A DNA stretch of 64,000 nucleotides. Origin: Methanolinea sp. UBA277 (GTDB lineage Archaea > Halobacteriota > Methanomicrobia > Methanomicrobiales > Methanospirillaceae). Below the pieces are notes generated by a model that made no database searches, was not told the origin of the DNA, and saw only the letters and a program-made list of their open reading frames with translations. The position numbers and the translations under genes were made by a program. How positions within the stretch are numbered: position 1 is the first letter of the stretch; each line of letters begins with the position of its first letter. This document shows positions 5,962 to 58,153 of the stretch, one piece after another. Location: assembly GCA_002499905.1 (NCBI GenBank), contig DANP01000020.1:186054-250053 (forward strand). The letters run 5' to 3'.

Positions 5962-5962
5962 G

Positions 5963-6679
5963 ATGGGAAAAGTGTGGTTCGTGGGCGCCGGGCCCGGTGC
6001 GCCGGACCTGATCACGGTCCGGGGCATGGATCTCATCACCCGTGCTGATGTCCTGGTGTACACCGGTTCCCTGGTGAATCCCGCGCTCGTGGAGCGGTCC
6101 GGTGCACCGGTAAAGATCGATTCATGGGGAAAGACGCTCGAGGAGATCGTTCCCCTGATGGTGCAGCATGCCCAGGAGGGGGCCCTCGTGGTTCGGCTCC
6201 ATTCCGGAGACCCCGCCATCTTCGGAGCTATCGTAGAACAGATGCGGCTGCTCGATGAGGCGGGGATCGGGTACGAGGTGGTGCCCGGAGTCTCCTCGCT
6301 CTTTGCCGCCGCAGCTGCACTCCGGACCCAGTTTACCCTCGGTGGGGTTGCCGATACCCTGATCGTGACCCGGCCGGCCGGGAAAACCCTTGAGCGGGAC
6401 GAGATCCCGGAGCTCTCCATCCACACCGCCACCCTGGTCTTCTTCCTCGGTACAGACAGGATCGATGAGATCATCGGCAAACTCAGGCGTCCCCCCTCGA
6501 CTCCGGCAGCGGTAGTCTACCATGCCAGCTGGCCGGATGAGAAGGTGATCCGGGGGACCATCGGAGATATCGCAGAAAAGGCTCGTGCCGCGGGAATTAC
6601 CCGTTCCGCCCTCCTGATCGTGGGCGGGGTGATCGATCCTGCCGACTCGGGCCACCGGAGGTCGGTGCTCTACTCATGA
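5963..6679 (+). CDS. cbiF: cobalt-precorrin-4 C11-methyltransferase
   Basis: Motifs 'KVWFVGAGPGAPDLITVRG', 'VVRLHSGDPAIFGA' and 'VVPGVSS'. I prefer the ATG at 5963 to the track start at 5948. Confidence 0.9.
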   Translation: MGKVWFVGAGPGAPDLITVRGMDLITRADVLVYTGSLVNPALVERSGAPVKIDSWGKTLEEIVPLMVQHAQEGALVVRLHSGDPAIFGAIVEQMRLLDEAGIGYEVVPGVSSLFAAAAALRTQFTLGGVADTLIVTRPAGKTLERDEIPELSIHTATLVFFLGTDRIDEIIGKLRRPPSTPAAVVYHASWPDEKVIRGTIGDIAEKARAAGITRSALLIVGGVIDPADSGHRRSVLYS

Positions 6680-13407: not shown

Positions 13408-13526
13408 GTATGAGAGGTGGTCCTTTTCCCTACAAGAGCATTGGTGAAAGACTCACGGTGCCGGGAGGGTTTATGCGGGACTGCAGTGCATGTCCGGATC
13501 TGAGGTGAAAAAAGGTGATAATCGGG

Positions 13527-13874
13527 TTACATCCCAAGGAGTCTGATCCAGCTGACAGGGAGCCCTGTTCTCTGGAATGTCCACCACAGGTTCCCGTCTG
13601 TTGATCCTACGGATCCCTGGGAGGTCCAGGTCATGCCAACAGGATTCCGGGCAATGTAGGAGGATATCCATTCTTCTTTTTCGGTTATTCCAGCAGTGAG
13701 CGTGGAACGATGAATGGATACGGTCTCGTTTACCGTCCCCTGCACGGACACGCTGGTGCCCGTGGAGAAGTAGCTTCCTGCAGTGGAGAGACTGGTTGCC
13801 GCAGCCGCCCCTGCAAGCAGGCAGAGTACAAGACACAGCATGATCAGGGTGGATAGTTTTTTTCCTGTGGTCAT
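13527..13874 (-). CDS. small secreted protein, unknown function
   Basis: 115 aa with N-terminal signal peptide 'MTTGKKLSTLIMLCLVLCLLAGAAAA'. I prefer it to the overlapping 153-aa ORF, whose translation is Cys/His/Arg-rich and does not look coding. Confidence 0.5.
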   Translation of the reverse strand: MTTGKKLSTLIMLCLVLCLLAGAAAATSLSTAGSYFSTGTSVSVQGTVNETVSIHRSTLTAGITEKEEWISSYIARNPVGMTWTSQGSVGSTDGNLWWTFQRTGLPVSWIRLLGM

Positions 13875-13969
13875 GGATTTCTCCTTTCCGGCGGGAACAG
13901 CGGATGTTCAGGTAGTAATGATCCCGGCACATTAAAAGTTTTCTGAACCTCCCGGTTCAAGAGAGCCGT

Positions 13970-18401: not shown

Positions 18402-18496
18402 AGCACTATCAAGTCTTCCCGGGATGACAAATGTATACCGATCCAGCACTCCCCGTCCACAGAAGTTTGATACCCGGCCGGTTCAAATCCCCTTCT

Positions 18497-18766
18497 ATGG
18501 ACCTGCCAGAGCTCTGCTGCCTCTTCCTCCTGATCGCGCTCGTGGCCGGTTGCGGGGGCTGTGTCCGGGAGGCAGACCAGGAACGCGGTTCAGCCGGCGG
18601 GCTCTTCCCTGAACCACCCCCGACACCCCCGGCTGTTCCCGAACCCTGGGTACTTCCCACAGTTCCCGCCTTGTCACGGGACCAGAGCGGATTCTCAGGC
18701 AGATCCCAAACCTCTCATAGTATCACCCCCTTACGAGCTGTGATGGAGGATACAATCCATGGATGA
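18497..18766 (+). CDS. possible small lipoprotein (89 aa)
   Basis: The internal ATG of track ORF 18431-18766 gives '[22 protein letters not shown]', a lipobox-like LVAGC. A Pro-rich tail follows. Its end overlaps the next gene's start. Support is weak. Confidence 0.3.
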
Positions 18767-20864
18767 GGGGGACCCGGGGGAGAGCGGGAAACGGAAGCCG
18801 AACCGGCTCATCAACGAGGTGAGCCCCTACCTTCTCCAGCATGCCTTCAACCCGGTCGACTGGTACGCCTGGAGCGATGAAGCCTTTGCCAGGGCTGAAC
18901 GGGAGGACCGGATGGTCTTCCTTTCCATCGGGTATGCCACCTGCCACTGGTGTCACGTGATGGAGCGGGAGTCCTTTGAAGACCCTGAGGTCGCCCGGGT
19001 GCTGAACGAGCACTTCGTTGCCATTAAGGTCGACCGCGAAGAGCGGCCCGATCTTGACCATCTCTATATGACAGCGAGCCAGATCCTGACCGGAGCGGGG
19101 GGGTGGCCCCTCAACCTGATCCTGACCCCGGAGAAGCGGCCGTTCTTTGCCATGACCTACATCCCCCGGGAGCGCCGGTTTGGTTCCCGGGGCATCATCG
19201 ACGTGCTCACCGGTCTCGCACAGATGTGGCGGGAGGACCGGGAGAAACTGCTGGCATCGGCACAGGTGGTCTCCCGATCGCTCGATGCCCGCCCGGAACG
19301 GGGGCGGAGTCCCCAGCGGAATATGCTCGATGCAGGGTTCCAGGACCTCCTGCTCCGCTACGACCGGGTCAGCGGCGGGTTTGGCCCGGCCCCAAAATTC
19401 CCCCTCCCTCACAACCTGCTCTTTCTTCTCCGGTATTACCGCCTGAAGGAGGAGAGAAAAGCTCTCGAAATGGTGGAAAAGACCCTCCGGTCCATGGCCC
19501 TGGGCGGAATCTGCGATCAGGTCGGACACGGGTTTCACCGCTACTCGACCGACGCGGGCTGGCTCGTGCCCCACTTTGAGAAGATGCTGTATGATCAGGC
19601 GCTGCTGGTGCTCGCCTTCACTGAAGCGTTCCAGGTGACGGGAGACCGGTTCTACGAACGGGTTGCCCGGGAGATCCTTGCCTACGTTGACCGGGAGATG
19701 ACCTCCCCGGAAGGAGCGTTCTTCTCGGCCCAGGACGCCGATACGGCAGGAGAGGAGGGAGGCTACTACCTCTGGACGAGAGCGGAACTGGAGGAACTGC
19801 TCGATCCTGACATCTTCAGGGTCGCGGCCGATGCGTGGCACGTGACCACGGCTGGAAACTTCCTCGACCCGGTGAGCGGGGAGCGGACCGGGAAGAACAT
19901 CCTCCACCTGGCCCGGACACCGGACCAGTTTGCGGCACGGCTGAAGATGACCGGGGAGGGGCTGGAGACAGCCCTGACCACTGCCCGGGATGCCCTCGCA
20001 GAGGCCCGCCGGGAGCGCGAACCACCGATGACCGATGACAAGATCCTTACCGACTGGAACGGGCTGATGATCGCCGCCTGTGCCCGCGCTTCCCGGGCCT
20101 TTTCCGAACCGTGTTATGCTGATCGTGCCGAGGCGGCATGCGGCTTTCTTCTCGACCGCCTGCGGGCCGGTGACGGCTCGCTCCTGCACCGGTACCGGGA
20201 CGGACAGGCAGGGATCATGGGACAGGCAACCGACTATGCATTCCTGATCTCCGGCCTTTCCGAGCTCTTCATGGCCCGCTCCCGTCCCGCACACCTCGCG
20301 GCCGCTCTCGATCTCTGGCAGATCTTCCATGATCGGTTCTGGGACACCCGACATGGCGGCTATTTCACCACTGCGGCCGGACAGGACGACCTGATTGCCC
20401 GCAGGATTGACCTGTACGATGGTGCCATTCCTTCGGCAAACTCGGTCGCTTTCACCGATCTCCTGACGCTCTCCCTGCTCACCGGTGATACCGTCTATGA
20501 GAAGCGGGCTTCCGAACTCGGAAAGCTGTACTCGGGCCCGCTCTCCCGGTCCCCTGCCGCCTATACGTTCTTCCTGACCGGCCTCTCGCTCGTATACGGA
20601 CCATCCGGAGAGATCGTTATCGTCGAAGGAGATGACGGTGCAGGGCAGGAGATGGCTAAGGCAGTCCACCAGCGCTATCTCCCGTTTACCGTGGTGATCC
20701 GGAAGACCGGTGAGAACCGGGAGGAACTCCCCCGGCTCGCCCCCTTTACTGAGGTCATGGACGCCCCGGGAGGGAAGAGCACCGCGTATGTCTGTATGCG
20801 GCATGCCTGTTCACGCCCGGTGACCACGGTTGATGAGATGCTCGCAGCGATTGAAAAGAAGTAA
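18759..20864 (+). CDS. thioredoxin-domain protein, DUF255/YyaL (SSP411-like) family
   Basis: 701 aa. N-terminus '[24 protein letters not shown]' and the thioredoxin-like site '[12 protein letters not shown]', followed by a long alpha-helical barrel-type region. Confidence 0.88.
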
Positions 20865-21568: not shown

Positions 21569-22933
21569 TTATTTCACTACCGGAAAGCCGGCCTTCAGCC
21601 AAGCTGCCATGCCACCGAGGATATTGGCAATATCGGGATATCCGTTCCGGGCAAGGATGCTTGCCCCGAGGGATCCCTTGTACCCGGCATCGCAGTACAC
21701 GGCAATCGTCCGGTCCTTCGGTATCTCGGAGAGCCTGCCGGGGAGTTCTCCGATATAGATGTGGTGCGCTCCCGGTATCTTTCCGGCGCGGATAACGTTG
21801 CTGATGTCCCGGACATCGAGGAGGAAGAGATCCTTCTCCGTTCTTCGCCGTTCCAGCTCCTGGACGCTCCACGCACCGAATGTTCCGACAGGTCCAGCCG
21901 ATTTGAACCAGGCAGGGAACCCCCCGGCAAGGTAGCCTGCCAGGTTGTCGTACCCGAGCCGCACGAAGTGCCAGCTCACCTCCCGGAGGTTGCAGTTGAA
22001 ATCATCGATCAGGATGATGGGATTCTCAAAGGTCAGGAACCAGCCCATGAACGCCGGGAGACCCTCTTTCCAGATCGAGAGACTCCCGGGGATATGCCCG
22101 GCCGCAAACGAGGTCGGGGACCGGATGTCGAGGAGCTGGGCCCTGCCCTGGAGGTCCCTGACCTCTTTCACCCCGAATGCCTTCAGGTCAGGAAGGTGGT
22201 TGATGAGCGGCGCTCCCTCTTTGTTGTGCTTCTCCATCATTCTGAAATAGGGCGGCAGGTAGTGGTGCTCGATCACCTTCTTCCGGATGAATTCCTCTTT
22301 TGAGAGCTGCAGGAGCGGGTTTGAGCGCCTCTCGTAGCCGATGGTGGAGAACTCGTGGTCGCTGATCTCGGATCCGCAGACCGATCCGGCCCCGTGGGCA
22401 GGAAAGATGATGGTCTGATCACCGAGGGGGAGGAGTTTTCCGGCGATGCTCTCGTAGAGCATCTCCGAGACCAGGGGCCGCTTCTCTTCCCCGAAGAAGT
22501 CGGTCCTGCCCACCTCCCCGGCAAAGAGCGCATCACCGGTGAACACGGCATACGGAGCATCAGAGACTTCCCGGTCGGTCACCACGATCGAGATGCTCTC
22601 CAGAGTGTGACCAGGAGTCTCGAGCACCTTCAGTTCGACCGTGCCAAGCCGGACGACATACCCGTCTTTCACCGGTGTTCCATAGGCAAAGTCCATCTGG
22701 TGCCCGTGCAGGATCGCAGCACCGGTCCGTGCGGCAAGCTCGCTTGAGCCGATGACATAGTCCTCGTTCCGGTGCGTCTCGAAGATGTGGGTGATCTGCA
22801 CACCTGCATCCTGTGCGAGATCCAGGTACTCCTCAACGTCCCGCCTCGGATCGATGACTGCAGCCTGGCCGCCGGCGCTGATGAAGTAGGAGTTATGCGA
22901 TATCCCTTCGGATGAAATCTTTCGGAGAATCAT
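21569..22933 (-). CDS. MBL-fold hydrolase fused to two rhodanese domains
   Basis: 454 aa. N-terminal MBL fold ('ETHRNEDY', 'TPGHT', 'FTGDALF', 'PAHG'). The C-terminal rhodanese has active-site loop 'CDAGYKGS'. The first rhodanese lacks the Cys loop. Confidence 0.85.
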   Translation of the reverse strand: MILRKISSEGISHNSYFISAGGQAAVIDPRRDVEEYLDLAQDAGVQITHIFETHRNEDYVIGSSELAARTGAAILHGHQMDFAYGTPVKDGYVVRLGTVELKVLETPGHTLESISIVVTDREVSDAPYAVFTGDALFAGEVGRTDFFGEEKRPLVSEMLYESIAGKLLPLGDQTIIFPAHGAGSVCGSEISDHEFSTIGYERRSNPLLQLSKEEFIRKKVIEHHYLPPYFRMMEKHNKEGAPLINHLPDLKAFGVKEVRDLQGRAQLLDIRSPTSFAAGHIPGSLSIWKEGLPAFMGWFLTFENPIILIDDFNCNLREVSWHFVRLGYDNLAGYLAGGFPAWFKSAGPVGTFGAWSVQELERRRTEKDLFLLDVRDISNVIRAGKIPGAHHIYIGELPGRLSEIPKDRTIAVYCDAGYKGSLGASILARNGYPDIANILGGMAAWLKAGFPVVK

Positions 22934-23113
22934 ACGTTCAGCCCCTACCGGGAATGGCGTTTCTGGATCGATATACCTTTTTCCCGGGTTGCCGGGGCAA
23001 TAGAACTATGATGTTGTCAACGAGAGATTCTCCCGGATATGCCGGAAAACGGAATCTCCACCCGACTAATGAATGGTGGATTTCAAACAGCAGTATGAGG
23101 TGGTTGGCGAGGT

Positions 23114-23635
23114 ATGTCCCCCAATCGTGATAGAAAGCAGGAGTTCGTAAATGTCTCCAGTGACAGGACACGCGAGGAGATTATTTTCGCCGTTCTTTCG
23201 CTTCGGATGGCAATAGACAAACGAATTAAAAAGCTGGTCGATGCAGTAAATGATCTCCCTGATGTCTATACGTGCGGTTCATGTGGTGGGCATAAAGATC
23301 TGGAAAACAGGGAGAATCCTGTACCGGAAGGTTATTTTTATATTCAGTTTATCGTAGAACCAACAGAAAACGGGTTCTTATCGCTGGGTATAATCGACCT
23401 TGCGGCACGAAATATTGATAACGATGATTTAACCGTGAAAGTTTTGAACTGTACAGACAATCCAAAATTAGTCATGTTCAATATTTTAGGAAAAAATTGG
23501 GCAGACCCGGATGAAGTTGCGAAGGAAATAAAAGCTCTCTGCACAACGTGGGGGCTCTCTCTTCATGGAGTTCGTGCATATAAGAAAAATGTGAGGAGAA
23601 TGATTGCGTATAACAGGATTCAGCAGGATGCATAA
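23114..23635 (+). CDS. hypothetical protein in AT-rich island
   Basis: 173-aa ORF whose composition is visibly AT-rich compared with its neighbours. It contains 'VYTCGSCGGHKD'. I recognise no family. The start could instead be the ATG at 23207 ('MAIDKRIKK'). Confidence 0.55.
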   Translation: MSPNRDRKQEFVNVSSDRTREEIIFAVLSLRMAIDKRIKKLVDAVNDLPDVYTCGSCGGHKDLENRENPVPEGYFYIQFIVEPTENGFLSLGIIDLAARNIDNDDLTVKVLNCTDNPKLVMFNILGKNWADPDEVAKEIKALCTTWGLSLHGVRAYKKNVRRMIAYNRIQQDA

Positions 23636-23642
23636 CAGGGGT

Positions 23643-23662
23643 GTGGACACTACGAAATTTCA
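23643..23662. repeat. 20-nt direct repeat, copy 1 (GTGGACACTACGAAATTTCA)
   Basis: Identical at 19 of 20 positions to 24717-24736. It lies 8 nt after the stop of the 23114-23635 ORF. Confidence 0.9.
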
Positions 23663-23811
23663 ATTAGAAACACCACAATTTCAAAAACATTACAATTCAC
23701 TAATATTTTATATGGATTATACAAGCCTCCGGAAATATAACTTATAAAATGAAATTGTGCTTATTTCTTCTTTCAGGTTCAATTATTTTAAAAAAGGAAA
23801 TTTTTCAGGAG

Positions 23812-24624
23812 TTACCTGACCATGCCGGACTCGTAGTGCATGAGCTTGTCAAAGAGGGTGATCGCTCCGTCAACAGAGGTCTCCTCGGTGAACTCGATGC
23901 GCTCCATGAGAGTGGCCGGGTCGAACAGATCGCCGCGCCCCTCCTGGATCAGGACATCCATGTAGGCAGATGCGAATCCGACAGAGGGCACGTCACTGAC
24001 GAGCTCGGTGACCCGGAGGTCGTGGTTCAGCTCGACCGGGTGGTCGGCGGACGGCATGACGAACCTGCCGGTAGTGGTGGTCCGGACGTTGGCAACAGTC
24101 ATGTCGATGGTGCTGCCTGCCTGGGCCCTGTTGCAGTATGCCGGGAAGCTCTGGGCGTTAGCAGATGCGAACGGACAGATGACCTCCTCGACGGTGACTG
24201 ACTCATTGCCGGCTCCGTCTACCATGATGTTGTCGCTGGACACGACGGAGGCGCTGTCAATGCCGATAAAGGCGATCTGCTTGGTAGCCTCGACGTTCCA
24301 CTGGCCGCTGATCTGGCCGGAGGTCTCGATGTCGAGCTCCTTGTCGTAGAGCATCAGGCCCACGCCATGGGTCTGGGTGTCCTCGGTGTAGGTCGATTCG
24401 TAGATTGCACCGGGTGCATTAAGAACGGGCACTCCGGGCAGACCGTCAACATCATCAGTGATCCTCCACTGCATTTCAGTGGCTGATGCGAAGTTACCGA
24501 TCACGTTCACAGACGTGGAGGTAACGATGCCTTGGGTCTCGGGGACCGGGTCGATTCCACGGTCGGCCATGGCAAACCCGGTAATAAGAGCTAATGCGAT
24601 GATTAAAATTGCGAGTTTCTTCAT
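23812..24624 (-). CDS. secreted protein, unknown function (270 aa)
   Basis: Signal peptide 'MKKLAILIIALALITGFAMA'. The mature part is acidic and Thr/Ser/Val-rich. Codons are strongly NNC/NNG-biased despite AT-rich flanks. Oligo-T tracts follow the stop on the minus strand. Confidence 0.8.
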   Translation of the reverse strand: MKKLAILIIALALITGFAMADRGIDPVPETQGIVTSTSVNVIGNFASATEMQWRITDDVDGLPGVPVLNAPGAIYESTYTEDTQTHGVGLMLYDKELDIETSGQISGQWNVEATKQIAFIGIDSASVVSSDNIMVDGAGNESVTVEEVICPFASANAQSFPAYCNRAQAGSTIDMTVANVRTTTTGRFVMPSADHPVELNHDLRVTELVSDVPSVGFASAYMDVLIQEGRGDLFDPATLMERIEFTEETSVDGAITLFDKLMHYESGMVR

Positions 24625-50768: not shown

Positions 50769-52349
50769 TTACCTCCTGCTCCTCCGTGCCCGGCATGCTT
50801 CCACAAATCCCCTGAACGGTGGTGATGGCCGGGTGGGGCGTGACCGGAACTCGGGGTGGAACTGGGTGGCAAGGAAGAAGGGATGGTCCGGGATCTCGCA
50901 GATCTCCATCCGGTTTTTCCACATCCCTGAAAAGATCATACCGCCTTTCTCTAGCTCGGAGATATACTCCGGGTTCACCTCATACCGGTGCCGGTGCCGT
51001 TCGATAATCTCCTTCTGCCCGTAGATCTGCATGGCCAGGGTATGCTCCTTCAGGGTGACAGGATAGTTTCCGAGGCGCATGGTCCCGCCGAGGTCGGTCA
51101 CCCCCTCCTGTTCGGGGAGGATGGCGATCACATGGCGTCCCTCGCCTATCTCGGCACTGGTCGCATCCTCCCACCCGAGCACGTGGCGCGAAAACTCTAC
51201 CACTGCGAGCTGGAACCCGAGGCAGAGCCCGAGCAGGGGGATCCCGCGGGTCCGGGCGTACTGAATCGCTCCGATCTTGCCCTCGAGACCCCGCTGGCCG
51301 AACCCGCCGGGAATCAGGATCCCGTCAACATCGGCAAGGTGCGATTCATCGTAGCGCTCGGCATCGAGCCAGGTTATCTTCACTTCGGTGGAGAGCGCCC
51401 GTCCCGCATGCTTGAGGGCCTCCTTGATGCTCAGGTAGACATCCTCAACCCCGTACTTGCTGACGATCCCCACCTGCACCCTGGAGGTGTACTCCCGGGA
51501 AACCAGGCTGTACCAGCTGGTGTCCGGCTTCTTCTCCCCGAGCCGGAGGTGCCTGAAGAGGACCTCGGCGATACCCTCTTTCTCCATCTCCATCGGAACC
51601 TGGTAGATATCGGGGACCGTTGCCGCACTGATGACGCCCTGCTGGGACAGGTCGCAGAAGGCCGAGATCTTCCGCTTGGTCTGGGAGCCGATGGGCCGCT
51701 CTCCCCTCCCGACGATGATATCGGCGTGCAGGCCAAGCTCACGGAGGGCCTTGACCGAGTGCTGGGTGGGCTTGGTCTTGAGATCCCCCATGGAGTCTTC
51801 CGGAAAAAGGGTGACATGGATCAGGACCGTATCCTCTTCCGGGAGCTCCCCGCGCATCTGGCGGACGGCCTCGAGGAATGGCATGCTCTCGATATCCCCG
51901 ACGGTTCCACCCACTTCTACCAGGCAGATGTCGGCCTTCCCGTTCCCGGATGTCGCGTCATGGGCCGCTGCCCTGATGCAGGACTTGATCTCCTCGGTGA
52001 TGTGGGGAATGATCTGGACCGTCTCCCCCAGATACTCCCCTTTCCGCTCCTTGTCGATCACGCTCCGGTAGATCTTGCCGGTGGTGAGATTGTGATCGGA
52101 GGTGAGGTCGATATCGAGGAACCGCTCGTAGTTGCCAAGATCAAGATCCACTTCTCCCCCGTCAGAGAGGACAAAGACCTCGCCATGCTGGCCGGGGTTC
52201 ATGGTTCCGGCATCGATGTTCAGGTAGGGATCGATCTTTACCGCAGTCACACCGTAGTCGCGGTTCTTGAGGATTCTTCCGATCGACGCGGCGGTGATTC
52301 CCTTGCCAAGGCCGCTCATCACCCCCCCGGTTACAAAGATGTATTTCAC
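50769..52349 (-). CDS. pyrG: CTP synthase
   Basis: '[16 protein letters not shown]', GATase Cys 'GLCLGFQ' and 'HRHRYEVN'. 526 aa. Confidence 0.97.
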
Positions 52350-52443
52350 GAAGACTACCCACCCAGGCGCGAACCTGTTATCTGGTGTATCTATTCTACG
52401 CGGCTGGTGATAGTTTTTGTTCCATGCTCCCCCGAGAGGGGGG

Positions 52444-52854
52444 TCATCCTCTCGTCACGGCATAGGCGGCGGAACACCGGGCAAGGATCCTGTCCTCACC
52501 CTCACGGGTCACGTCCCCCTCGGCAAAGATGACCCTGCGCCCCCGTTTGACGACGGTTCCTGAGGCAATCAGCACTCCTCCCTGCGTCCCGGCAAGAAAG
52601 GACGTGGTCTCGGAGATGGTGGCAATACGCTCCCCGGGATCGAGCAGCGGGTAGATGGCAAGGACCATGGCTTCATCGGCGAGAGCGGTAAAGATTCCCC
52701 CCTGAAGCCATTCCTCGCCGTTCATCATGTCCTGCCGCACCGGCATCCTGATCTCGGCCGATCCTTTTCCGATGGCTCCCAGTTCAACTCCCATGAGGGT
52801 AAAGAATGGGTTTGCATCCCTCCCCTGCTCCCGTATACGCTCGATGTAGCTCAT
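52444..52854 (-). CDS. PaaI-type hotdog-fold thioesterase
   Basis: The ATG at 52854 gives '[10 protein letters not shown]'. '[19 protein letters not shown]' is typical of the PaaI/YdiI family. Confidence 0.75.
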
Positions 52855-52930
52855 GATTCCGAGATTCGGACTCTGCCGGCATAAGGGTGCCGGACATCCT
52901 TTTTTTTGTTCCGGAACCAAACATACTGGT

Positions 52931-53161
52931 ATGGATGTCGATGAGGAGAAGGAGCTGCTGAAAGACCTGATCTGGCTCAATGCCGTGATCGCCACCGAGC
53001 TCATCCAGATCACCGAGAATGTCTCTTCCATTCTCCGCCAGGGACCGCCCCCCGAATCCTGTCTTGTGGATCACAACCGGCTCAGGGAGCAGGCGCTGAC
53101 GATTGTCGAGAAGTACCGGGATGCACCAGCACTCAGGGAACACCTGCTCGGCCACCGATAA
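52931..53161 (+). CDS. small helical hypothetical protein (76 aa)
   Basis: The internal ATG of track ORF 52853-53161 gives 'MDVDEEKELLKDLIWLNAVIATELIQITENV..'. It lies 24 nt upstream of the GT2 gene. Confidence 0.45.
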   Translation: MDVDEEKELLKDLIWLNAVIATELIQITENVSSILRQGPPPESCLVDHNRLREQALTIVEKYRDAPALREHLLGHR

Positions 53162-53185
53162 CCGGAGAGGAGCCTGATTCCACAC

Positions 53186-53881
53186 GTGACACCCGCATAC
53201 AGTATCATCATCCCGGCCTACAACGAGGAGAACCGGATCCGGGGTCTCCTCGACCAGATGCCTGGCATGGCGGGCCAGTACATCGTTGTCTGTGACGGGA
53301 CTGATGCCACTCCCGGGATTGTTGTATCGTTCGCCCGGGCCCATCCCGATCTTGACCTGGTCTGCCTGACATACAACCGGAGGCTTGGGAAAGGGGGTGC
53401 GGTCAGGGAGGGGTTCGCCCATGCTGCCGGTCCCCTGGTCGGGTTCATGGATGCCGACGGGTCGACTTCCCTCTCCCAGATGGAAGATCTCATCGACAGT
53501 ATCAACGGTGCCGACGGCATCATCGGCTCGCGCTGGCTGCCGGGCTCCGTGATTCCGGTACAGCAGGGGATTGCACGGCGGCTCGAGAGCAGGGTGTTCA
53601 ACCTCCTGGTCCGTCTCCTCTTCTTGCTCTCGTTTTCAGATACGCAGTGCGGTGCAAAAGTATTTAAAAAATCAGCCATCGATGCTGTGGTAGATGATAT
53701 GGTCTCGACGGGATTCGAGTTTGACGTCGAGCTCCTGTGGCGGCTCTCCCGGAAGGGGTTCCTGGTCAGGGAGCACCCGATCACCTGGGAAAACCAGGGG
53801 GCATCACGAGTGAAAACGATGGATATCTTCCGGATGCTCGCCGCCCTCATCTCCCTTCGCCTTGGAGGGGCGGGGCGATGA
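53186..53881 (+). CDS. family-2 glycosyltransferase (dolichyl-phosphate hexose synthase-like)
   Basis: GTG start. 'SIIIPAYNEE', DxD 'FMDADGS' and 'DTQCGAKVF'. No C-terminal TM is visible apart from the hydrophobic tail 'IFRMLAALISL'. Confidence 0.88.
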   Translation: MTPAYSIIIPAYNEENRIRGLLDQMPGMAGQYIVVCDGTDATPGIVVSFARAHPDLDLVCLTYNRRLGKGGAVREGFAHAAGPLVGFMDADGSTSLSQMEDLIDSINGADGIIGSRWLPGSVIPVQQGIARRLESRVFNLLVRLLFLLSFSDTQCGAKVFKKSAIDAVVDDMVSTGFEFDVELLWRLSRKGFLVREHPITWENQGASRVKTMDIFRMLAALISLRLGGAGR

Positions 53882-55701
53882 CTGACGGGCGCTTCGAGGA
53901 GATCCGGCGCGAATCCTTCCGCCTCTACGAGGAGGGACGATATGCCGAATCGCTGGAACAGTGCCGTGCCGCCGGCACCGCCGCATCCGACCCGCAGCTG
54001 GCCATTCTTGCAGCCCGCAACCTCTTCAAGCTGGGCCGCTTCGATGAGGCGGAGGCGTATGTCCGGGATCTCATCCAGAAGATGCCGGACACCTCCTACC
54101 TCCACAGTTTCCTGGGACAGATCCTCGAGGAGCGGGGAGACGACACCGCGGTGTCCGAGCATGCACTGGCCGTTCTGCTGGACCCGACAAACCAGGAAGC
54201 CCTCCGGAGCTATGCCACGTACATGATGTCAAAGGGGGATCACCGGATGGCCGTTCCGGCCCTGAAGAAACTGGCTGCCCTGACCGGGCGGGAGGATGAC
54301 GCCCGGTGCCTGATCCGGGCGCTGACCGCGTCAGGCCAGGCCGCAGACGCGCTGTCCCTGTTTGGCAGGGACGTGAGGCGGCGGGAGGATGACCTGGACC
54401 ATATCTCCGCCCTGATGGGTGCCGGACGCTATCCGGAAGCCGCCCGTGAGGCGGCCGCGGCCTACCGGTCGTCCGGAAAGCTCCCGTTTGCCCGGATATA
54501 TCTCCGTGCCCGTGCCCTGAAGGACCCGGAAGCCGCGGCCCCGGAATACAAAGATTATTTCTCCATCCTCAAAGACCCTGGAATAGGTCTTGACTATGCA
54601 CTGCTGCTCCGGGCGCTCGGCAGACCGGGAGAGGCAATGGCCGTCTGCCGTGAGCTGCTTGATTCGGACCAGGGGGTTCCCGACTACGCCGTCCGCCTCC
54701 TGACCTGCCGGCTGAATGCCGATCTCAGTGAGAAGGAGCGGGCTTCGGGATGCTACGATCATCTCATCAGGGATGCACTGCAGAACCTCGACGATCCTGA
54801 ATTCCTCACGGACCTGCTCTCGGGATACCGGGAGTTTCTCCTCACCCACTACCCGGTACGGGATGCGGAGCGCCGGTTTCTTGAGATGGTATCCGCCAAC
54901 CCGCAGGTAGTTTGCCTGCTCGCCACGGCCCGCCTGTATGAGGATATCGGTGACCTCTCCGAAGCCCGTTCCTACTCATACCGGGCTTACCGGAGTGACT
55001 TCCTGCTGGGGGGGATGGCCTATGCCCGGTTCCTGGCCAGGCAGAACGAATTCCGGGAGAGCGAGAAGGTTCTCCTCTACGTGCTGAACAATGCAAAGCG
55101 GACCCGTGAGATTGAAACGGTTGCCGGGCTGATCCTGGATGACCAGTGGAAGCTCTACCGCAGAGCCCGTCTGCTTGAACGACTGGTCGCGATCCTCGAT
55201 CAGCGGATTTCCCTGCTGAGCTCGGACGGCCTTGAATACCTCGCTGTCGCCTGTCTCGTCTCCGCCAGCTCTGCCCGGCGGGAGAAGGACTACCTGCGGT
55301 GCAAGGAGTACTGCCTGCGGGGGCTTGATGCAGTCCCGGCGTTCTCGACCCATATCCGCCCGGGAGATTTCCTGGAGCTCATCCAGGGCTGCAAGGAGGA
55401 GGCGGTCTGTGACCCCCCGGTCATGAGGACGCGGGGTCAGGCAGAAGAGCCCGGACAGGAGTACACCCGGGCGGTCAGGGAGTTCATGGAAACCTGTGAC
55501 GATCAGGAACGCCGTATTCTCGAGTATCTGCTCGAGCACAACGAGGCGAGCGAGATCGAGCTTCGCCGCCTCCTGAACACGAGGAGGGTGGTCGGGATCA
55601 TGAACCGGATCATACAGAAGGCGGCCGCGTCAGGAATCGGAATCATTGAGAAGCGGGGAGTTGGAGAAGGAGGAGAGATCTATGCCTATATCGCAGGGTG
55701 A
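53878..55701 (+). CDS. TPR/helical-repeat protein with C-terminal wHTH-like domain (607 aa)
   Basis: The ATG at 53878 forms an ATGA overlap with the GT2 stop. The N-terminal half shows repeated 34-residue TPR-like units ('YEEGRYAESLEQCRAA', 'LGRFDEAEAYVRDLI', 'GDHRMAVPALKKLA'). The last ~70 aa, 'DDQERRILEYLLEHNEASEIELRRLLNTRRVVGIMNRIIQKAAASGIGIIEK', look like a winged helix. Confidence 0.85.
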   Translation: MTDGRFEEIRRESFRLYEEGRYAESLEQCRAAGTAASDPQLAILAARNLFKLGRFDEAEAYVRDLIQKMPDTSYLHSFLGQILEERGDDTAVSEHALAVLLDPTNQEALRSYATYMMSKGDHRMAVPALKKLAALTGREDDARCLIRALTASGQAADALSLFGRDVRRREDDLDHISALMGAGRYPEAAREAAAAYRSSGKLPFARIYLRARALKDPEAAAPEYKDYFSILKDPGIGLDYALLLRALGRPGEAMAVCRELLDSDQGVPDYAVRLLTCRLNADLSEKERASGCYDHLIRDALQNLDDPEFLTDLLSGYREFLLTHYPVRDAERRFLEMVSANPQVVCLLATARLYEDIGDLSEARSYSYRAYRSDFLLGGMAYARFLARQNEFRESEKVLLYVLNNAKRTREIETVAGLILDDQWKLYRRARLLERLVAILDQRISLLSSDGLEYLAVACLVSASSARREKDYLRCKEYCLRGLDAVPAFSTHIRPGDFLELIQGCKEEAVCDPPVMRTRGQAEEPGQEYTRAVREFMETCDDQERRILEYLLEHNEASEIELRRLLNTRRVVGIMNRIIQKAAASGIGIIEKRGVGEGGEIYAYIAG

Positions 55702-56983
55702 CGCAGCCGAGAAGAACAAGCTCGAGAGTATCAATATCATCAATGCCCTCAGGAGGGGGACCGTCCCGGCCGGGGGCCTCGAGCGGATCGCGGTCGGCAT
55801 CGGGATGGAAGAAGGGGTGATCGGTGCCCAGTTCGACTACGTCGCGAAGGGTGGCGGCGATCTCAAGTTCATCCGGGGGGATTACGGGAGCGGGAAAACA
55901 TTTCTTGTTGCCCGGGCACTCGAGATCGCCCGGGAGAAAGGATTTGTCACCGCCCACGTGGTCGTCTCCCCATCAGCACCGCTCTACCGGCAGAAGAATA
56001 TCTACCAGCAGATCTGTGCAAGCCTCCGGACCCGTGAAGAGGAGCACGCGGTCAAGGCGGTCATCGACACCTGGCTCTTCTCGATTGAGGAACGCCTGCT
56101 TCGGGTGAGCGACCAGCCTCTTGACGAGGAGAGCCTGGAGAAGGCGACCCTCAAGGAGATAGAGACGGCCCTTGCCGGTATCTCCGAGGTGAACTCTTCC
56201 CTCGCTGCGGCGCTACGGACCTACTACCGGGCCAACAATGCCGGTGACTTCCAGACCGCCCAGTCGGCCATCGGGTGGATCGGTGCAGAGCCGAACATCG
56301 GGCGGGAATTCAAGCAGAAGGCCGGGATCCGGGGGGATGTGGATGAGACCTATGCCCTCATCTTCCTCAAAGGCCTGGTCAGGATCATCGTTAATGCCGG
56401 GTATGCCGGCCTCGCGGTTGCCGTCGATGAGCTCGAGACCACCCAGGTCCTTCCGAGAAACCAGCGGGACAAGGCCTACAATACCCTCCGTCTCCTGATC
56501 GATTCGCTCGACCGCGGTGAGCTTCCGTACTGCTACTACCTCTTCACCGGAACCCCGGCATTCTTCGAAGGTCCCCGCGGGGTCCGCTCCCTCCCGTCCC
56601 TTGCCGACCGGATCGGGGTCGTCGAGACCGGGGAGTTCCGGAACCCCCGCCAGCCCCAGATCTTCCTGAACCGGTTCGATGCAAAGAAGCTCGAGCAGGT
56701 GGCCCAGAAAGTCATCCAGATCTACTCGGTGGCCTACACCGAGGTTGACCGCACCCGGATATCCCACCGGTTCATCAGGGCCATGATCGGGAAGGTGACC
56801 GGGAAGTTCGGCGGCAGGGTCGATGTCATCCCCCGGATTTTCTTAAAAGAGTTCGTGGATGTGATCGACAAGTGCGAGCTGTATGACGACTATGATCCCT
56901 GGGAGAGCTATCAGTTCGACACCCGCCACCTGAAAGGGGAACTCCGCGAGGAGGAGGAGGCGGTCATGGTGGTTGAGTTCTGA
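55682..56983 (+). CDS. P-loop ATPase, DUF2791 / BrxC-BrxD-type ATP-binding family (by recollection)
   Basis: The ATG at 55682 follows GGAGAAGGAGGAGAG and overlaps the TPR gene by 20 nt. N-terminal 'IINALRRGTVPAGGLERIAVG', Walker A 'GDYGSGKTF' and Walker B 'LAVAVDELE'. 433 aa. Confidence 0.8.
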   Translation: MPISQGDAAEKNKLESINIINALRRGTVPAGGLERIAVGIGMEEGVIGAQFDYVAKGGGDLKFIRGDYGSGKTFLVARALEIAREKGFVTAHVVVSPSAPLYRQKNIYQQICASLRTREEEHAVKAVIDTWLFSIEERLLRVSDQPLDEESLEKATLKEIETALAGISEVNSSLAAALRTYYRANNAGDFQTAQSAIGWIGAEPNIGREFKQKAGIRGDVDETYALIFLKGLVRIIVNAGYAGLAVAVDELETTQVLPRNQRDKAYNTLRLLIDSLDRGELPYCYYLFTGTPAFFEGPRGVRSLPSLADRIGVVETGEFRNPRQPQIFLNRFDAKKLEQVAQKVIQIYSVAYTEVDRTRISHRFIRAMIGKVTGKFGGRVDVIPRIFLKEFVDVIDKCELYDDYDPWESYQFDTRHLKGELREEEEAVMVVEF

Positions 56984-57012
56984 CTTGGTGCCTATCTGGA
57001 ACAGGTACGTTC

Positions 57013-57047
57013 TTTTTCCTGACCGGTTCAGAGTCCTTCTGAACTGG
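57013..57047 (+). terminator. T5 run plus 10-bp hairpin downstream of the ATPase gene
   Basis: TTTTT at 57013-57017. Hairpin CCGGTTCAGA-gtcct-TCTGAACTGG at 57023-57047 (one G-U pair). A T7 run follows at 57093-57099. Confidence 0.45.
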
Positions 57048-57117
57048 CGGAATTCCGGAGGTCCGCCGGAACGATCGGGCTACCGGTGAACATTTTTTTA
57101 CCATCATCTGGTATAAT

Positions 57118-57134
57118 CAGTTGTTATACAACTG
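57118..57134. promoter_or_regulatory. perfect 7-3-7 palindrome CAGTTGT-TAT-ACAACTG upstream of tupA
   Basis: Read directly. Related half-sites are CACTTGGTT (57140-57148) and ATCACTGGT (57169-57177). The half-site matches the CAGTTGGTT motif at 60460, 60489 and 61151. Confidence 0.55.
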
Positions 57135-57205
57135 TTTAACACTTGGTTAATGTTAAAAGGAAATATTCATCACTGGTTACAGGTAACGTGATAGTCGTGG
57201 TAGCG

Positions 57206-58153
57206 ATGAAAAAGACACATCAGGGTTTTATCCTGCTGACTATGGCGGCCATCGTGGTGATGGGCGTCTGGTTTGCCGGGTGCACCACCCCCACGACTCC
57301 TGCTCCCCCGGAGAAGGAGAAAGTACTGCTGGCAACGACCACCAGCCTGTATGACACCGGGCTGCTTGACTACCTCAAGCCGATGTTTGAGGAGCAGTAC
57401 AACGTCGATCTCCTGATCACCTCCCAGGGAACCGGGAAGGCTCTTGAGATCGCCAGCCGCGGCGATGCCGACGTCCTGGCCGTCCATTCCCCGGCCCAGG
57501 AAAAGACCTACATGGACTCGGGCAAGGGACTGAACCACCGGTGCTTTGCCTACAACTACTTCATCATCGTCGGCCCGGAGAGCGATCCGGCCGGAATCAG
57601 GGGGATGGAGCCGGTAGCGGCATTCACAAAGCTCTACGAGCTAGGCACGGCCGGTATTCCGGACGTGGTATTCATATCGCGCGGGGACAACTCGGGAACG
57701 CACTCGAAGGAGAAGTCCATCTGGGCAACGGCAGGCTACAACTACACGACTGATATCCAGAAGTCCGGTGCCTGGTATGTCGAAGCCGGAAGAGGTATGG
57801 GCGAGACCCTGCAGCTGGCAAACGAGAAGCAGGCGTATACCCTGTCTGATGAGGGTACCTACCTCGCTTACAAGGGTGACCTCGACCTTGTACCGGTCAT
57901 TGACCAGGGAGACATCCTGCTGAACGTGTACAGTGTCATTACCGTGTACAGCGACAAGTTCACTCCCGAGGAGATTGCCGCGGCCAACAACTTCGTTGAC
58001 TTTATGATCTCTCCTGAGGTGCAGGACACCATCGGCACGTTCGGTGTGGACAAGTACGGAAAGAACCTCTTTACCCCGATGAGCGGCCAGTGCAGTCAGT
58101 TCTCCTGCGACTGCACCAGTCCGGCCACGGAAACCGCACCGGCGGCTGCCTGA
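57206..58153 (+). CDS. tupA: tungstate ABC transporter substrate-binding protein TupA
   Basis: The ATG at 57206 gives 'MKKTHQGFILLTMAAIVVMGVWFAGC', a signal peptide with a lipobox-like Cys. TupA hallmarks 'LATTTSLYDTGLL', 'GTGKALEIASRGDADV' and 'ISRGDNSGTH'. Confidence 0.88.
   Translation: MKKTHQGFILLTMAAIVVMGVWFAGCTTPTTPAPPEKEKVLLATTTSLYDTGLLDYLKPMFEEQYNVDLLITSQGTGKALEIASRGDADVLAVHSPAQEKTYMDSGKGLNHRCFAYNYFIIVGPESDPAGIRGMEPVAAFTKLYELGTAGIPDVVFISRGDNSGTHSKEKSIWATAGYNYTTDIQKSGAWYVEAGRGMGETLQLANEKQAYTLSDEGTYLAYKGDLDLVPVIDQGDILLNVYSVITVYSDKFTPEEIAAANNFVDFMISPEVQDTIGTFGVDKYGKNLFTPMSGQCSQFSCDCTSPATETAPAAA

What the first reader, a model, noticed from the sequence alone, without database searches (positions are those of the whole stretch)
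52931..56983. Translationally coupled GT2 / TPR-wHTH / DUF2791-like P-loop ATPase operon: candidate uncharacterised split NTPase-sensor module
Three genes are chained by overlaps. The GT2 stop and the TPR start share ATGA at 53878-53881. The ATPase ATG at 55682 lies 20 nt inside the TPR gene, behind a strong GGAGG.

The 607-aa protein is all helical/TPR repeats and ends in a winged-helix-like domain (about 55490-55698). The 433-aa partner has 'INALRRGTVP', Walker A 'GDYGSGKTF' and Walker B 'VDELE'. I recognise this as the DUF2791 family, later folded into the BrxC/BrxD BREX ATP-binding family.

I see no PglZ, methylase, helicase, nuclease or other known BREX or defence partner nearby, and no effector domain. 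One reading is a STAND-like NTPase switch split over two polypeptides (ATPase plus TPR sensor plus DNA-binding output). As far as I know such a pairing has no described function. The link to a dolichyl-phosphate-type glycosyltransferase is also unexplained.
Basis: partly seen in the sequence, partly recalled or inferred. Interest (0 to 1): 0.7.

Follow-up and report, generated by a model that had tools for sequence, protein, structure and literature searches.

The report
BREX-derived ATPase with TPR partner
A methanogen carries an ATPase borrowed from a bacterial anti-virus system (BREX), always paired with a repeat protein that ends in a DNA-binding-type domain, fixed among housekeeping genes and lacking every other BREX part, so it probably has a new, still unknown job.

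Summary
GT2 (53186-53881), a 607-aa TPR protein (53878-55701) and a 433-aa ATPase (55682-56983) are chained by 4-nt and 20-nt overlaps.

The ATPase is a full-length BrxD (PF10923, E 6e-125; NCBIfam BrxD 403 bits, cut-off 350). An alignment-based AlphaFold model (pLDDT 90) shows a TPR superhelix, a flexible linker and a three-stranded winged helix.

The TPR gene lies directly upstream of the ATPase in all 35 archaeal loci examined, from six genera of Methanomicrobiales. The overlap is conserved. The flanks are a syntenic housekeeping block (argD-guaA-pyrG-thioesterase | … | hisD). The ATPase evolves about as slowly as ArgD. No PglZ, BrxC or BrxHI is nearby.

Bacterial relatives (36-47% identity) all sit in BrxC/PglY-PglZ-BrxD-BrxHI (type-2-like) BREX loci. 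Type-2 PglZ ends in a winged helix, and the two bacterial loci with a clearly homologous copy have it beside brxD. The archaeal pair therefore looks like a stripped-down PglZ(wHTH)-BrxD junction.

I read it as a vertically inherited, probably domesticated, ATP-driven DNA-associated switch. Its function is untested. GT2 linkage holds in three of five families. It is a new variant of a known kind. Interest 0.55.

The parts
52900..52907 (+). T8 run 24-31 nt upstream of the ATG at 52931. It is a candidate TATA/BRE-like promoter element for a near-leaderless transcript. This is inference only.
   Evidence: Sequence read. The available promoter tool covers only sigma-70 promoters, so this was not tested.
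52931..53161 (+). Conserved 76-aa ORF of unknown function, 24 nt upstream of GT2. It is probably the first gene of the transcript in this organism. Across genomes it stays with the neighbouring thioesterase rather than with the TPR-ATPase pair.
   Evidence: ORF and stop codon. It is 57% identical over 72 aa to L002 6946-7182. It is called as a gene in relatives. Homologues lie next to the 4HBT gene in Methanofollis, away from the pair. It has no Pfam, NCBIfam or PADLOC hit.
53186..53881 (+). GT2 glycosyltransferase, 231 aa, catalytic domain only. It resembles polyprenyl-phosphate sugar transferases and has no C-terminal membrane-spanning part.
   Evidence: PF00535 at E 5.9e-17. Best NCBIfam hits are AglJ and dolichyl-phosphate hexose transferase, far below their cut-offs. 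The nearest solved structures are ArnC and P. furiosus DPMS. It lies directly upstream of the TPR gene in Methanoregulaceae, Methanospirillum and Methanocalculus.
53878..55701 (+). TPR-wHTH partner protein, 607 aa. The ATGA at 53878-53881 holds its start codon and the GT2 stop codon.
53887..55401 (+). All-helical TPR-type superhelix (residues 4-508, 29 helices). Conserved patches lie at residues 37-125 and 341-410.
   Evidence: AF2 model m244e94fafba5, pLDDT 90.4. Pfam TPR_19 at 2.3e-14. Foldseek returns generic TPR superhelices such as OGT, Naa15 and Ctr9. Conservation by region.
55501..55689 (+). Three-stranded winged helix-turn-helix (residues 542-604), tethered by a disordered linker (residues 509-526). 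It is the most conserved part of the protein. It is homologous to a wHTH found at or near PglZ in bacterial BREX loci that also carry BrxD.
   Evidence: Secondary structure. Fifteen invariant residues across five families. The profile hits L036 (6e-9) and L063 (2.5e-8), which sharpen to 1.8e-15 and 1.2e-19 after one jackhmmer round. Aligned at 41% and 30% identity. Type-2 PglZ ends in a three-stranded wHTH (PMC12839542).
55669..55684 (+). Shine-Dalgarno GGAGG/GGAGAG plus the ATPase ATG, embedded in the codons for the invariant G599-E600-x-Y602 of the wHTH wing. This is a site of translational coupling.
   Evidence: In 15 of 16 loci checked from six genera, the ATPase ATG lies 14-20 nt before the end of the TPR stop codon and follows GGAGAG.
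55682..56983 (+). BrxD-family AAA+ ATPase, 433 aa. Walker A GDYGSGKTF is at nt 55877-55903. Walker B VAVDELE is at nt 56417-56437.
   Evidence: G69, G71, K72, T73, D249 and E250 are invariant in alignment A4.
57013..57099 (+). Two oligo-T runs (57013-57017 and 57093-57099) after the ATPase stop codon. They are candidate archaeal terminators that would end the transcription unit before tupA.
   Evidence: Sequence read. This is inference. No Rfam element lies in 52000-58000.

Best explanation
**What is shown.** The TPR-wHTH gene and the BrxD-type ATPase gene form a fixed two-gene module found only in Methanomicrobiales. The two genes are translationally coupled, so the products probably act together. 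The module is inherited vertically at one syntenic chromosomal site. Its two most conserved elements, the ATPase and the C-terminal three-stranded winged helix, have their closest relatives in bacterial BREX loci of BrxC/PglY-PglZ-BrxD-BrxHI (type-2-like) layout. Type-2 PglZ ends in a winged helix, and in the two bacterial loci with a clearly homologous copy it lies directly before brxD (L036) or just after brxHI (L063). The module therefore looks like a stripped-down descendant of the PglZ(wHTH)-BrxD junction. A TPR superhelix replaces the PglZ enzyme, and the methyltransferase, BrxC/PglY, PglW and the BrxHI helicase are all missing.

**How it most likely works (inferred).**
- Coupled translation yields the two proteins together.
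- The flexibly tethered winged helix supplies, in trans, the DNA-binding or ATPase-docking domain that stand-alone BrxD lacks. This rebuilds an Orc1/Cdc6-like 'AAA+ plus wHTH' unit.
- The TPR superhelix, through its two conserved patches, binds a conserved cellular protein or peptide.
- ATP binding and hydrolysis by BrxD switch assembly of the complex on DNA.

**Likely role (inferred).** Without a modification enzyme or an effector it cannot carry out BREX-type self/non-self restriction. It also sits in a housekeeping block and evolves at the pace of core enzymes. I therefore think it has been domesticated as a chromosomal, ATP-driven regulatory or genome-maintenance switch, not a mobile defence system. 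GT2 is co-transcribed in three of five families and may be a target or a co-worker, but it is not an obligatory part.
For: **Family of the ATPase.**
- PF10923 at 6.4e-125, NCBIfam BrxD 403 bits (cut-off 350) and PADLOC BrxD at 3.8e-122.

**Pairing.**
- The TPR-wHTH gene is directly upstream in 35 of 35 archaeal loci. These come from Methanoregula, Methanolinea, Methanospirillum, Methanocorpusculum, Methanocalculus and Methanofollis.
- The overlapping start, with its embedded Shine-Dalgarno sequence, is conserved in 15 of 16 loci checked.

**Vertical inheritance.**
- The block argD-guaA-pyrG-4HBT | GT2-TPR-BrxD | hisD is shared by Methanoregulaceae, Methanospirillum and Methanocalculus.
- The archaeal BrxD sequences are monophyletic and branch by taxonomy in a neighbour-joining tree.
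- ATPase identity is 53-79%, which tracks ArgD at 63-76%.

**BREX origin.**
- All 48 bacterial loci recovered have 36-47% identity. Open-reading-frame sizes in the eight loci inspected fit a BrxC/PglY-PglZ-BrxD-BrxHI layout, and PADLOC scans of the neighbours in L036 and L046 confirm it.
- The nearest one, L036, lies in the sister group of the archaeal clade.
- The wHTH profile hits a segment directly before brxD in L036 and a protein just after brxHI in L063 that also has a PglZ-C-terminus-like domain.
- It also hits the PglZ C-termini of Firmicutes and Actinobacteria weakly (hmmsearch E 0.02; hhalign E 3.6e-4).
- Type-2 PglZ is reported to end in a three-stranded wHTH (PMC12839542).
- At least 19 of 42 bacterial loci show a 4-nt PglZ/BrxD overlap.

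**Loss of the BREX machinery.**
- No BrxHI, PglZ or BrxC is found in the window or in any archaeal locus.

**Not mobile.**
- The TPR partner is absent from 72,556 plasmids. No homologue of the ATPase is found in 50,697 phage records, and IMG/VR holds only 23-30% relatives of it.
- Bacterial brxD is found on 693 plasmids.

**Structure.**
- The AF2 model has pLDDT 90.4, with the wHTH on a disordered tether.
- The wHTH and two TPR patches are the conserved parts.
Against: - No experiment or expression data exist for any member.
- Physical interaction of the two proteins, DNA binding by the wHTH and ATPase activity are all inferred.
- The complex could not be modelled.
- Defence systems without an obvious effector do exist: type-1 BREX itself and Shango. 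Lack of an effector therefore does not exclude immunity.
- The module seems absent from Methanoculleus and Methanomicrobium-type genera. That shows it is dispensable, as defence genes are.
- The TPR part evolves much faster (30-46% identity) than the ATPase, a pattern also seen in immune sensors.
- The link to the typical actinobacterial PglZ wHTH is weak (hhalign probability 37%). The strong links rest on two bacterial MAG loci, one of which has an in-frame stop codon.
- The tree is neighbour-joining without support values.
Confidence: 0.5

Rival explanations
1. It is a minimal anti-virus or anti-plasmid defence system that keeps the BREX role. The fast-evolving TPR array senses an invader protein. 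BrxD oligomerises on ATP. The wHTH clamps invader DNA and blocks its replication, with no separate effector.
For: - Every non-archaeal relative of the ATPase that was examined sits in a BREX locus, and these are often plasmid-borne.
- The next-best PADLOC match is the Shango ATPase SngB.
- Fusions of BrxD to a NERD nuclease domain or to SAP DNA-binding domains exist.
- The TPR part diverges much faster than the ATPase.
- The module appears to be missing from some Methanomicrobiales genera.
Against: - The module sits at the same housekeeping locus in three families, and the ATPase tree follows taxonomy.
- There are no neighbouring defence or mobile genes apart from one transposase in Methanofollis.
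- The ATPase is as conserved as ArgD.
- The TPR protein has no PADLOC hit.
- No copy is found on plasmids, and no close relative of the ATPase in phage or viral contigs.
- No methyltransferase or other self-marking partner is present.
- The conserved TPR patches and the near-invariant putative recognition helix argue for a constant ligand.
Confidence: 0.25
2. It is a dedicated partner of the glycosyltransferase. The TPR-ATPase pair regulates transcription of the GT2 gene, or scaffolds or chaperones the soluble GT2 catalytic subunit, which lacks a membrane anchor. The TPR array would bind GT2 or its protein substrate.
For: - GT2 and the TPR gene overlap or abut (-4 to +8 nt) in Methanoregulaceae and Methanocalculus. 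GT2 also lies directly upstream in Methanospirillum, where the exact junction is unresolved.
- GT2 is only a 231-aa catalytic domain, unlike the 320-374-aa ArnC and DPMS relatives, so a partner is plausible.
- The top structural matches of the TPR array include the TPR domains of O-GlcNAc transferase and SPINDLY. These are generic TPR similarities.
Against: - GT2 is absent from the locus in Methanocorpusculum (six loci), Methanofollis and L022, while the TPR-ATPase pair stays intact.
- Nothing in BrxD biology relates to glycosylation.
- The wHTH and the ATPase are the conserved core of the module, not any GT2-facing feature.
- The fold matches are not specific.
Confidence: 0.15
3. The genes are functionally unrelated neighbours whose overlaps are only a matter of compact packing.
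For: Short overlaps are common in compact archaeal genomes. This is general knowledge.
Against: - The adjacency holds in 35 of 35 loci, across divergence down to 30% identity in the TPR protein.
- The Shine-Dalgarno sequence and ATG are conserved inside the invariant wHTH codons.
- Type-2 BREX PglZ, encoded directly upstream of brxD, also ends in a wHTH.
Confidence: 0.03

Closest known systems
BrxD of type-2 BREX (the Pgl system), together with the C-terminal wHTH of type-2 PglZ and the BrxHI helicase
   Same: - The ATPase is a full-length BrxD by Pfam, NCBIfam and PADLOC.
- A wHTH-ending protein is encoded directly upstream and is translationally coupled, as is PglZ in BREX.
- The Walker A and Walker B motifs are intact.
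   Different: - No PglZ phosphatase domain, PglX, PglY/BrxC, PglW or BrxHI is present.
- A 500-residue TPR superhelix precedes the wHTH.
- The host is archaeal, whereas type-2 BREX was reported to be absent from archaea (PMC12839542).
- The module is chromosomal, syntenic and vertically inherited rather than mobile.
Shango defence system (SngA TerB protein, SngB ATPase, SngC helicase)
   Same: SngB is a BrxD-like ATPase, and the window protein matches it at 2.7e-44. SngC is BrxHI-like. Both systems therefore reuse the BrxD family outside BREX.
   Different: No TerB protein and no helicase is present here. The match to BrxD is far stronger than the match to SngB.
Orc1/Cdc6 initiator proteins (AAA+ domain plus a C-terminal winged helix on one chain)
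   Same: BrxD is classed in the ORC/Cdc6 clade of AAA+ (PMC12839542). The module pairs such an ATPase with a winged helix.
   Different: - The wHTH is on a separate polypeptide and comes before the ATPase, not after it.
- No sequence match to Orc1/Cdc6 was obtained here. A PDB sequence search returned nothing.
- A role at replication origins has not been tested.
STAND-type transcription regulators (MalT, AfsR/SARP-type: NTPase plus TPR-like sensor plus HTH)
   Same: The same three functional elements are present: a P-loop ATPase, a TPR array and a DNA-binding-type HTH. A sub-threshold AAA_16 hit and weak BTAD and TPR-S hits were found.
   Different: - The elements are split over two proteins and arranged in a different order.
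- The ATPase belongs to the BrxD family, not to NB-ARC, NACHT or the MalT type.
- No hit to these families passes its curated threshold.

Membership tests
BrxD ATPase family (Pfam PF10923 / NCBIfam NF033438) | Full-length profile match above the curated cut-off | tested here: met
   PF10923 scores 417.7 bits (cut-off 22.2) over profile positions 4-412 of 414. NF033438 scores 403.2 bits (cut-off 350).
BrxD ATPase family (Pfam PF10923 / NCBIfam NF033438) | Intact Walker A (GxxGxGKT) and Walker B (hhhhDE) motifs | tested here: met
   GDYGSGKTF and VAVDELE are present. G69, G71, K72, T73, D249 and E250 are invariant in alignment A4.
BrxD ATPase family (Pfam PF10923 / NCBIfam NF033438) | ORC/Cdc6-type AAA+ fold (HEH insert, arginine finger, C-terminal helical bundle) | not tested
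   These features are taken from PMC12839542.
Type-2 BREX system | PglZ phosphatase gene in the locus | tested here: not met
   tblastn with two PglZ proteins finds nothing in the window or in 35 archaeal loci, apart from an E = 0.1 hit on the wHTH itself.
Type-2 BREX system | PglX methyltransferase, PglY/BrxC ATPase and PglW kinase genes | tested here: not met
   There is no BrxC hit. No window ORF exceeds 901 aa, and the large ORFs scanned are MutS, MutL, a photolyase, a pyruvate:ferredoxin oxidoreductase-type protein, a rhodanese/metallo-beta-lactamase protein and two with no Pfam hit. Neighbours within 10 kb are metabolic or transport genes.
Type-2 BREX system | BrxD-BrxHI helicase dyad | tested here: not met
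   No BrxHI homologue is found in the window or in any archaeal locus. In the bacterial loci inspected, a BrxHI-sized gene follows BrxD directly, confirmed as BrxHI by PADLOC in L036, L046 and L063.
Type-2 BREX system | Three-stranded wHTH at the C-terminus of the protein encoded directly upstream of brxD | tested here: met
   The AF2 topology is H-E-H-H-E-E. The domain is homologous to the BREX-locus wHTHs of L036 and L063. Here it sits on a TPR protein, not on PglZ.
Shango (SngABC) | TerB-domain SngA and SngC helicase next to the SngB ATPase | tested here: not met
   The ATPase matches SngB at 2.7e-44, which is weaker than the BrxD match. No helicase is present. The neighbours carry no TerB domain.
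STAND NTPases | NB-ARC, NACHT or MalT-type NTPase domain | tested here: inconclusive
   Only AAA_16 is hit, at 30.7 bits, below its cut-off of 32.6. The literature places BrxD in the ORC/Cdc6 AAA+ clade. The fold was not classified here.
STAND NTPases | NTPase, sensor repeats and output domain on one polypeptide | tested here: not met
   The elements are split into two overlapping genes in all 35 loci. No TPR-BrxD fusion is among the ten long (multi-domain) BrxD proteins scanned.
GT2 polyprenyl-phosphate glycosyltransferases (DPMS, AglJ, ArnC type) | GT-A catalytic domain (PF00535) | tested here: met
   E 5.9e-17 over residues 6-166.
GT2 polyprenyl-phosphate glycosyltransferases (DPMS, AglJ, ArnC type) | Equivalog-level match to a characterised enzyme | tested here: not met
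   The best hit, AglJ, scores 53.6 bits against a cut-off of 325. PDB hits score only 36-40 bits.

The most novel reading that the evidence does not exclude
A component pair of a bacterial anti-phage system, the PglZ-type winged helix plus the BrxD ATPase of type-2 BREX, was captured by the ancestor of much of the Methanomicrobiales and fused to a TPR scaffold. It was then domesticated into a core-like cellular function, for example an Orc1/Cdc6-like ATP switch acting on chromosomal DNA or on transcription. This would be a clear archaeal case of a BREX part exapted for host physiology.
Probability: 0.35. Interest if true: 0.75.

Novelty: new variant of a known kind. Interest (0 to 1): 0.55.

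Why it matters
- **A simpler system for studying BrxD.** BrxD has no known mechanism. The latest survey calls its role 'uncharacterized', specific to type-2 BREX and tied to the BrxHI helicase, and it found no type-2 BREX in archaea (PMC12839542). Here BrxD works without a helicase, methyltransferase or PglZ enzyme and keeps only a PglZ-type winged helix next to it. This points to the wHTH-BrxD contact as the conserved functional core. It also offers a two-protein system in which BrxD biochemistry could be studied.
- **A possible case of domestication.** If the module has a host function, it would be an example of a defence-system part recruited into archaeal cell biology.
- **An annotation caution.** Automatic annotation labels these genes 'BREX system ATP-binding protein BrxD' in genomes where no other BREX gene was found near them. 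That label could inflate counts of BREX in archaea.

Tried and rejected
- **Single-sequence AlphaFold2 of the TPR protein.** It gave pLDDT 62 and was discarded. The model built from a 49-sequence alignment was used instead.
- **Pfam, NCBIfam and PADLOC on the isolated C-terminal domain, the middle region and the 76-aa ORF.** Nothing significant was found. HVO_1552_C at E 0.058 was ignored.
- **PDB sequence searches with the ATPase and with the wHTH profile.** Neither gave a usable hit.
- **Foldseek of the whole model against the PDB.** It returned only generic TPR superhelices. The wHTH could not be searched alone.
- **A 26-sequence BrxD alignment as a locus-search query.** An 8-sequence alignment worked.
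- **Iterative search for the wHTH.** It converged after adding only two bacterial loci. The profile-profile link to the actinobacterial PglZ C-termini is weak (probability 37%), so I treat that link as suggestive only.
- **Rfam scan of 52000-58000.** It returned nothing.
- **The sigma-70 promoter and terminator tool.** It was not used because the organism is an archaeon.
- **Literature searches** for DUF2791, BrxD, PF10923, Shango, and Methanomicrobiales plus TPR. None found a description of this pair.
- **Readings rejected.** The locus is not a complete or degenerate BREX locus, because no other BREX gene lies within 64 kb. It is not a provirus or plasmid cargo, because no copy of either gene turns up on plasmids and no close relative of the ATPase in viral collections.

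Full report
**1. The observation**

The ORF map and the raw sequence confirm the three chained genes.
- GT2 runs from GTG 53186 to 53881.
- The 607-aa TPR protein runs 53878-55701, and ATGA at 53878-53881 is shared with GT2.
- The 433-aa ATPase starts at ATG 55682, 20 nt inside the TPR gene and 8 nt after GGAGG (55669-55673). It ends at 56983.

Position 52931 is the ATG of a separate 76-aa ORF that stops at 53159-53161. That ORF is itself a real gene. It is 57% identical to the equivalent ORF of a relative whose TPR protein is only 45% identical, and gene callers call it in related contigs.

Oligo-T runs at 57013-57017 and 57093-57099 follow the ATPase stop. They are plausible archaeal terminators, but this is inference.

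**2. The three proteins**

*The ATPase.* It is a full-length member of the BrxD family. Pfam PF10923 matches at E 6.4e-125. The NCBIfam BrxD equivalog scores 403 bits against a cut-off of 350. PADLOC BrxD matches at 3.8e-122, and the Shango ATPase SngB is a distant second at 2.7e-44. The Walker A and B residues are invariant across an alignment that reaches 37% identity. No solved structure is detectable by sequence.

*The TPR protein.* It has only TPR-type Pfam hits, all in its N-terminal half, and no PADLOC hit. A single-sequence model was poor. A model built on 49 homologues reached pLDDT 90.4 and pTM 0.76. It shows:
- a TPR-type superhelix over residues 4-508;
- a disordered linker at 509-526;
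- a canonical three-stranded winged helix at 542-604 (H-E-H-H-E-E).

Foldseek finds only generic TPR superhelices.

*GT2.* It is a bare GT-A catalytic domain. It is distantly related to ArnC, to P. furiosus dolichol-phosphate mannose synthase and to AglJ, far below any equivalog cut-off.

**3. Is the pairing real?**

Homologues of the TPR protein are confined to Methanomicrobiales.

A scan of one genome per GTDB species with a BrxD alignment returned 80 loci. Together with metagenomic contigs, this gives 35 archaeal loci from Methanoregula, Methanolinea, other Methanoregulaceae, Methanospirillum, Methanocorpusculum, Methanocalculus and Methanofollis. In every one the TPR-wHTH gene lies immediately upstream of the ATPase on the same strand.

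In 15 of 16 loci inspected, the ATPase ATG lies 14-20 nt before the end of the TPR stop codon. It sits behind GGAGAG, which is formed by the codons of the invariant Gly-Glu of the wHTH wing. Only Methanofollis has a 4-nt gap instead. The adjacency is therefore not chance, and translational coupling is itself conserved.

GT2 is directly upstream in Methanoregulaceae, Methanospirillum and Methanocalculus. It is missing from the locus in Methanocorpusculum, Methanofollis and one further lineage. The 76-aa ORF follows the neighbouring thioesterase, not the pair.

**4. Genomic setting and evolutionary tempo**

The flanking genes form a housekeeping block shared by three families: an aminotransferase, argD, guaA, pyrG and a 4HBT thioesterase on one side, and hisD on the other. 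The window itself has tungstate and molybdate transport genes downstream.

ATPase identity to the window protein is 67-79% within Methanoregulaceae and 52-62% in other families. That is similar to ArgD (63-76%) and a little below PyrG and GuaA. The TPR protein drops to 30-46%.

In a neighbour-joining tree the archaeal ATPases are monophyletic and branch by taxonomy. They are nested among bacterial BrxDs. The tree has no support values.

- The TPR partner is absent from 72,556 plasmids.
- The ATPase has no homologue in 50,697 phage records.
- IMG/VR holds only 23-30% relatives of the ATPase.
- In contrast, bacterial brxD occurs on 693 plasmids.

A search seeded with the Methanofollis TPR protein found no Methanoculleus or Methanomicrobium member. 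The module is therefore probably not universal in the order.

**5. The link to BREX**

All 48 bacterial loci recovered carry BrxD at 36-47% identity. ORF sizes in the eight loci inspected fit a BrxC/PglY-PglZ-BrxD-BrxHI order, and PADLOC scans of the neighbours in L036 and L046 confirm it; BrxHI was also confirmed in L063. None of these partner genes occurs in the window or in any archaeal locus.

The new point concerns the winged helix.
- A profile of the archaeal C-terminal domain hits a segment lying directly between PglZ and brxD in the closest bacterial locus, L036 (Caldilineales), at E 6e-9.
- It also hits the C-terminus of a protein with a PglZ-C-terminus-like domain in L063, at 2.5e-8.
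- After one jackhmmer round these become 1.8e-15 and 1.2e-19.
- The aligned sequences share the motif ASE-x-ELR…TRR(V/I)xG…G-x-G-x-x-G-x-IY, at 41% and 30% identity.
- Hits to the PglZ C-termini of Firmicutes (E 0.02) and Actinobacteria (hhalign E 3.6e-4, probability 37%) are weak.

A 2026 survey states independently that type-2 PglZ ends in a three-stranded wHTH. It also states that BrxD is an ORC/Cdc6-type AAA+ without DNA-binding domains, that BrxD forms a dyad with BrxHI, and that type-2 BREX was not found in archaea (PMC12839542).

In at least 19 of 42 bacterial loci the PglZ stop and the BrxD start overlap by 4 nt. The junction 'protein ending in this wHTH, then BrxD' is thus shared between type-2-like BREX loci and the archaeal module. 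What differs is everything in front of the wHTH (a TPR array instead of the PglZ enzyme) and everything else in the locus.

**6. Most likely mechanism**

*Shown.* This is a strictly conserved, translationally coupled two-gene module. It has an intact P-loop ATPase and a tethered winged helix. Both are of BREX ancestry. The module is inherited vertically at a housekeeping locus.

*Inferred.*
- The two proteins form a complex.
- The wHTH provides the DNA-binding or docking function that stand-alone BrxD lacks, which gives an Orc1/Cdc6-like arrangement in trans.
- The TPR superhelix binds a conserved cellular partner through the conserved patches at residues 37-125 and 341-410.
- ATP turnover switches assembly on DNA.

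Without a methyltransferase or PglZ the module cannot perform BREX-type discrimination. I therefore favour domestication into a regulatory or genome-maintenance role, at confidence about 0.5.

*Rivals.*
- A minimal defence system (0.25). It is favoured by ancestry, by the fast-evolving TPR array and by the apparent absence of the module from some genera.
- A GT2-centred role (0.15). It is favoured by the conserved GT2-TPR coupling in three families and disfavoured by loss of GT2 from the locus in two.
- Chance adjacency. This is effectively excluded.

**7. Comparison with known systems and novelty**

The ATPase is a member of the BrxD family, and all tested features are met. The locus is not a type-2 BREX system and not Shango, because their defining partner genes were tested for and not found. 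It works somewhat like a split STAND or MalT-type regulator, but membership of that class is not supported.

I found no description of this pair in the searched literature. I rate it a new variant of a known kind: BrxD with a new partner, a new host domain and a non-mobile context.

Interest is 0.55. It would surprise BREX specialists moderately, and it offers a simple handle on the unknown function of BrxD, but no function has been demonstrated.

Noticed in passing
window 52931-53161 (+): A conserved 76-aa ORF with no family hit. It is 57% identical to L002 6946-7182. Across genomes it stays next to the 4HBT thioesterase gene, including two copies in Methanofollis (L001 95-259 and 1414-1641).
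   Followed up: partly
L036 9500-9919 (Caldilineales MAG): The PglZ ORF ends at 9715 with an in-frame stop codon, and the homologous wHTH continues in the same frame up to 9919, just before brxD. This could be a sequencing error, a pseudogene or a genuinely split gene.
   Followed up: partly
L063 about 13400-14717 (Vulcanimicrobiota MAG): The protein encoded after BrxHI carries two tandem winged helices. One is of the PglZ C-terminal type (PADLOC PglZ profile positions 800-908). The other is of the archaeal TPR-partner type.
   Followed up: partly
proteins P0188, P0226, P0229, P0241, P0247, P0253, P0193, P0200, P0202: BrxD occurs fused to an N-terminal NERD nuclease domain (46% identity to the window ATPase), to SAP DNA-binding domains, or to 350-600-aa C-terminal extensions with no Pfam hit. 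These are other ways of giving BrxD a DNA-directed partner.
   Followed up: partly
one search hit list: JGI names many archaeal BrxD homologues 'adenosylhomocysteinase', which looks like a propagated misannotation. NCBI names them 'BREX system ATP-binding protein BrxD', although no other BREX gene was found near them.
   Followed up: no
L002 11151-11711 and equivalents (family 9): A 170-aa protein with no Pfam hit follows the ATPase on the same strand in 15 Methanoregulaceae loci. It is missing in the window, where tupA follows instead.
   Followed up: no
window 12022-18449 (-): A photolyase gene (12022-13407) lies about 560 nt from adjacent bacterial-type MutL (13970-15805) and MutS (15744-18449) genes in this archaeal window.
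   Followed up: no
window 4756-6480 (-) and 18723-20804 (-) / 18759-20864 (+): These are long ORFs (573 and 692 aa) with no Pfam hit. The second is mirrored by an equally long antisense ORF, so the coding strand is unclear.
   Followed up: no
window 22001-24000: GC content drops to 0.51 against about 0.60 elsewhere.
   Followed up: no
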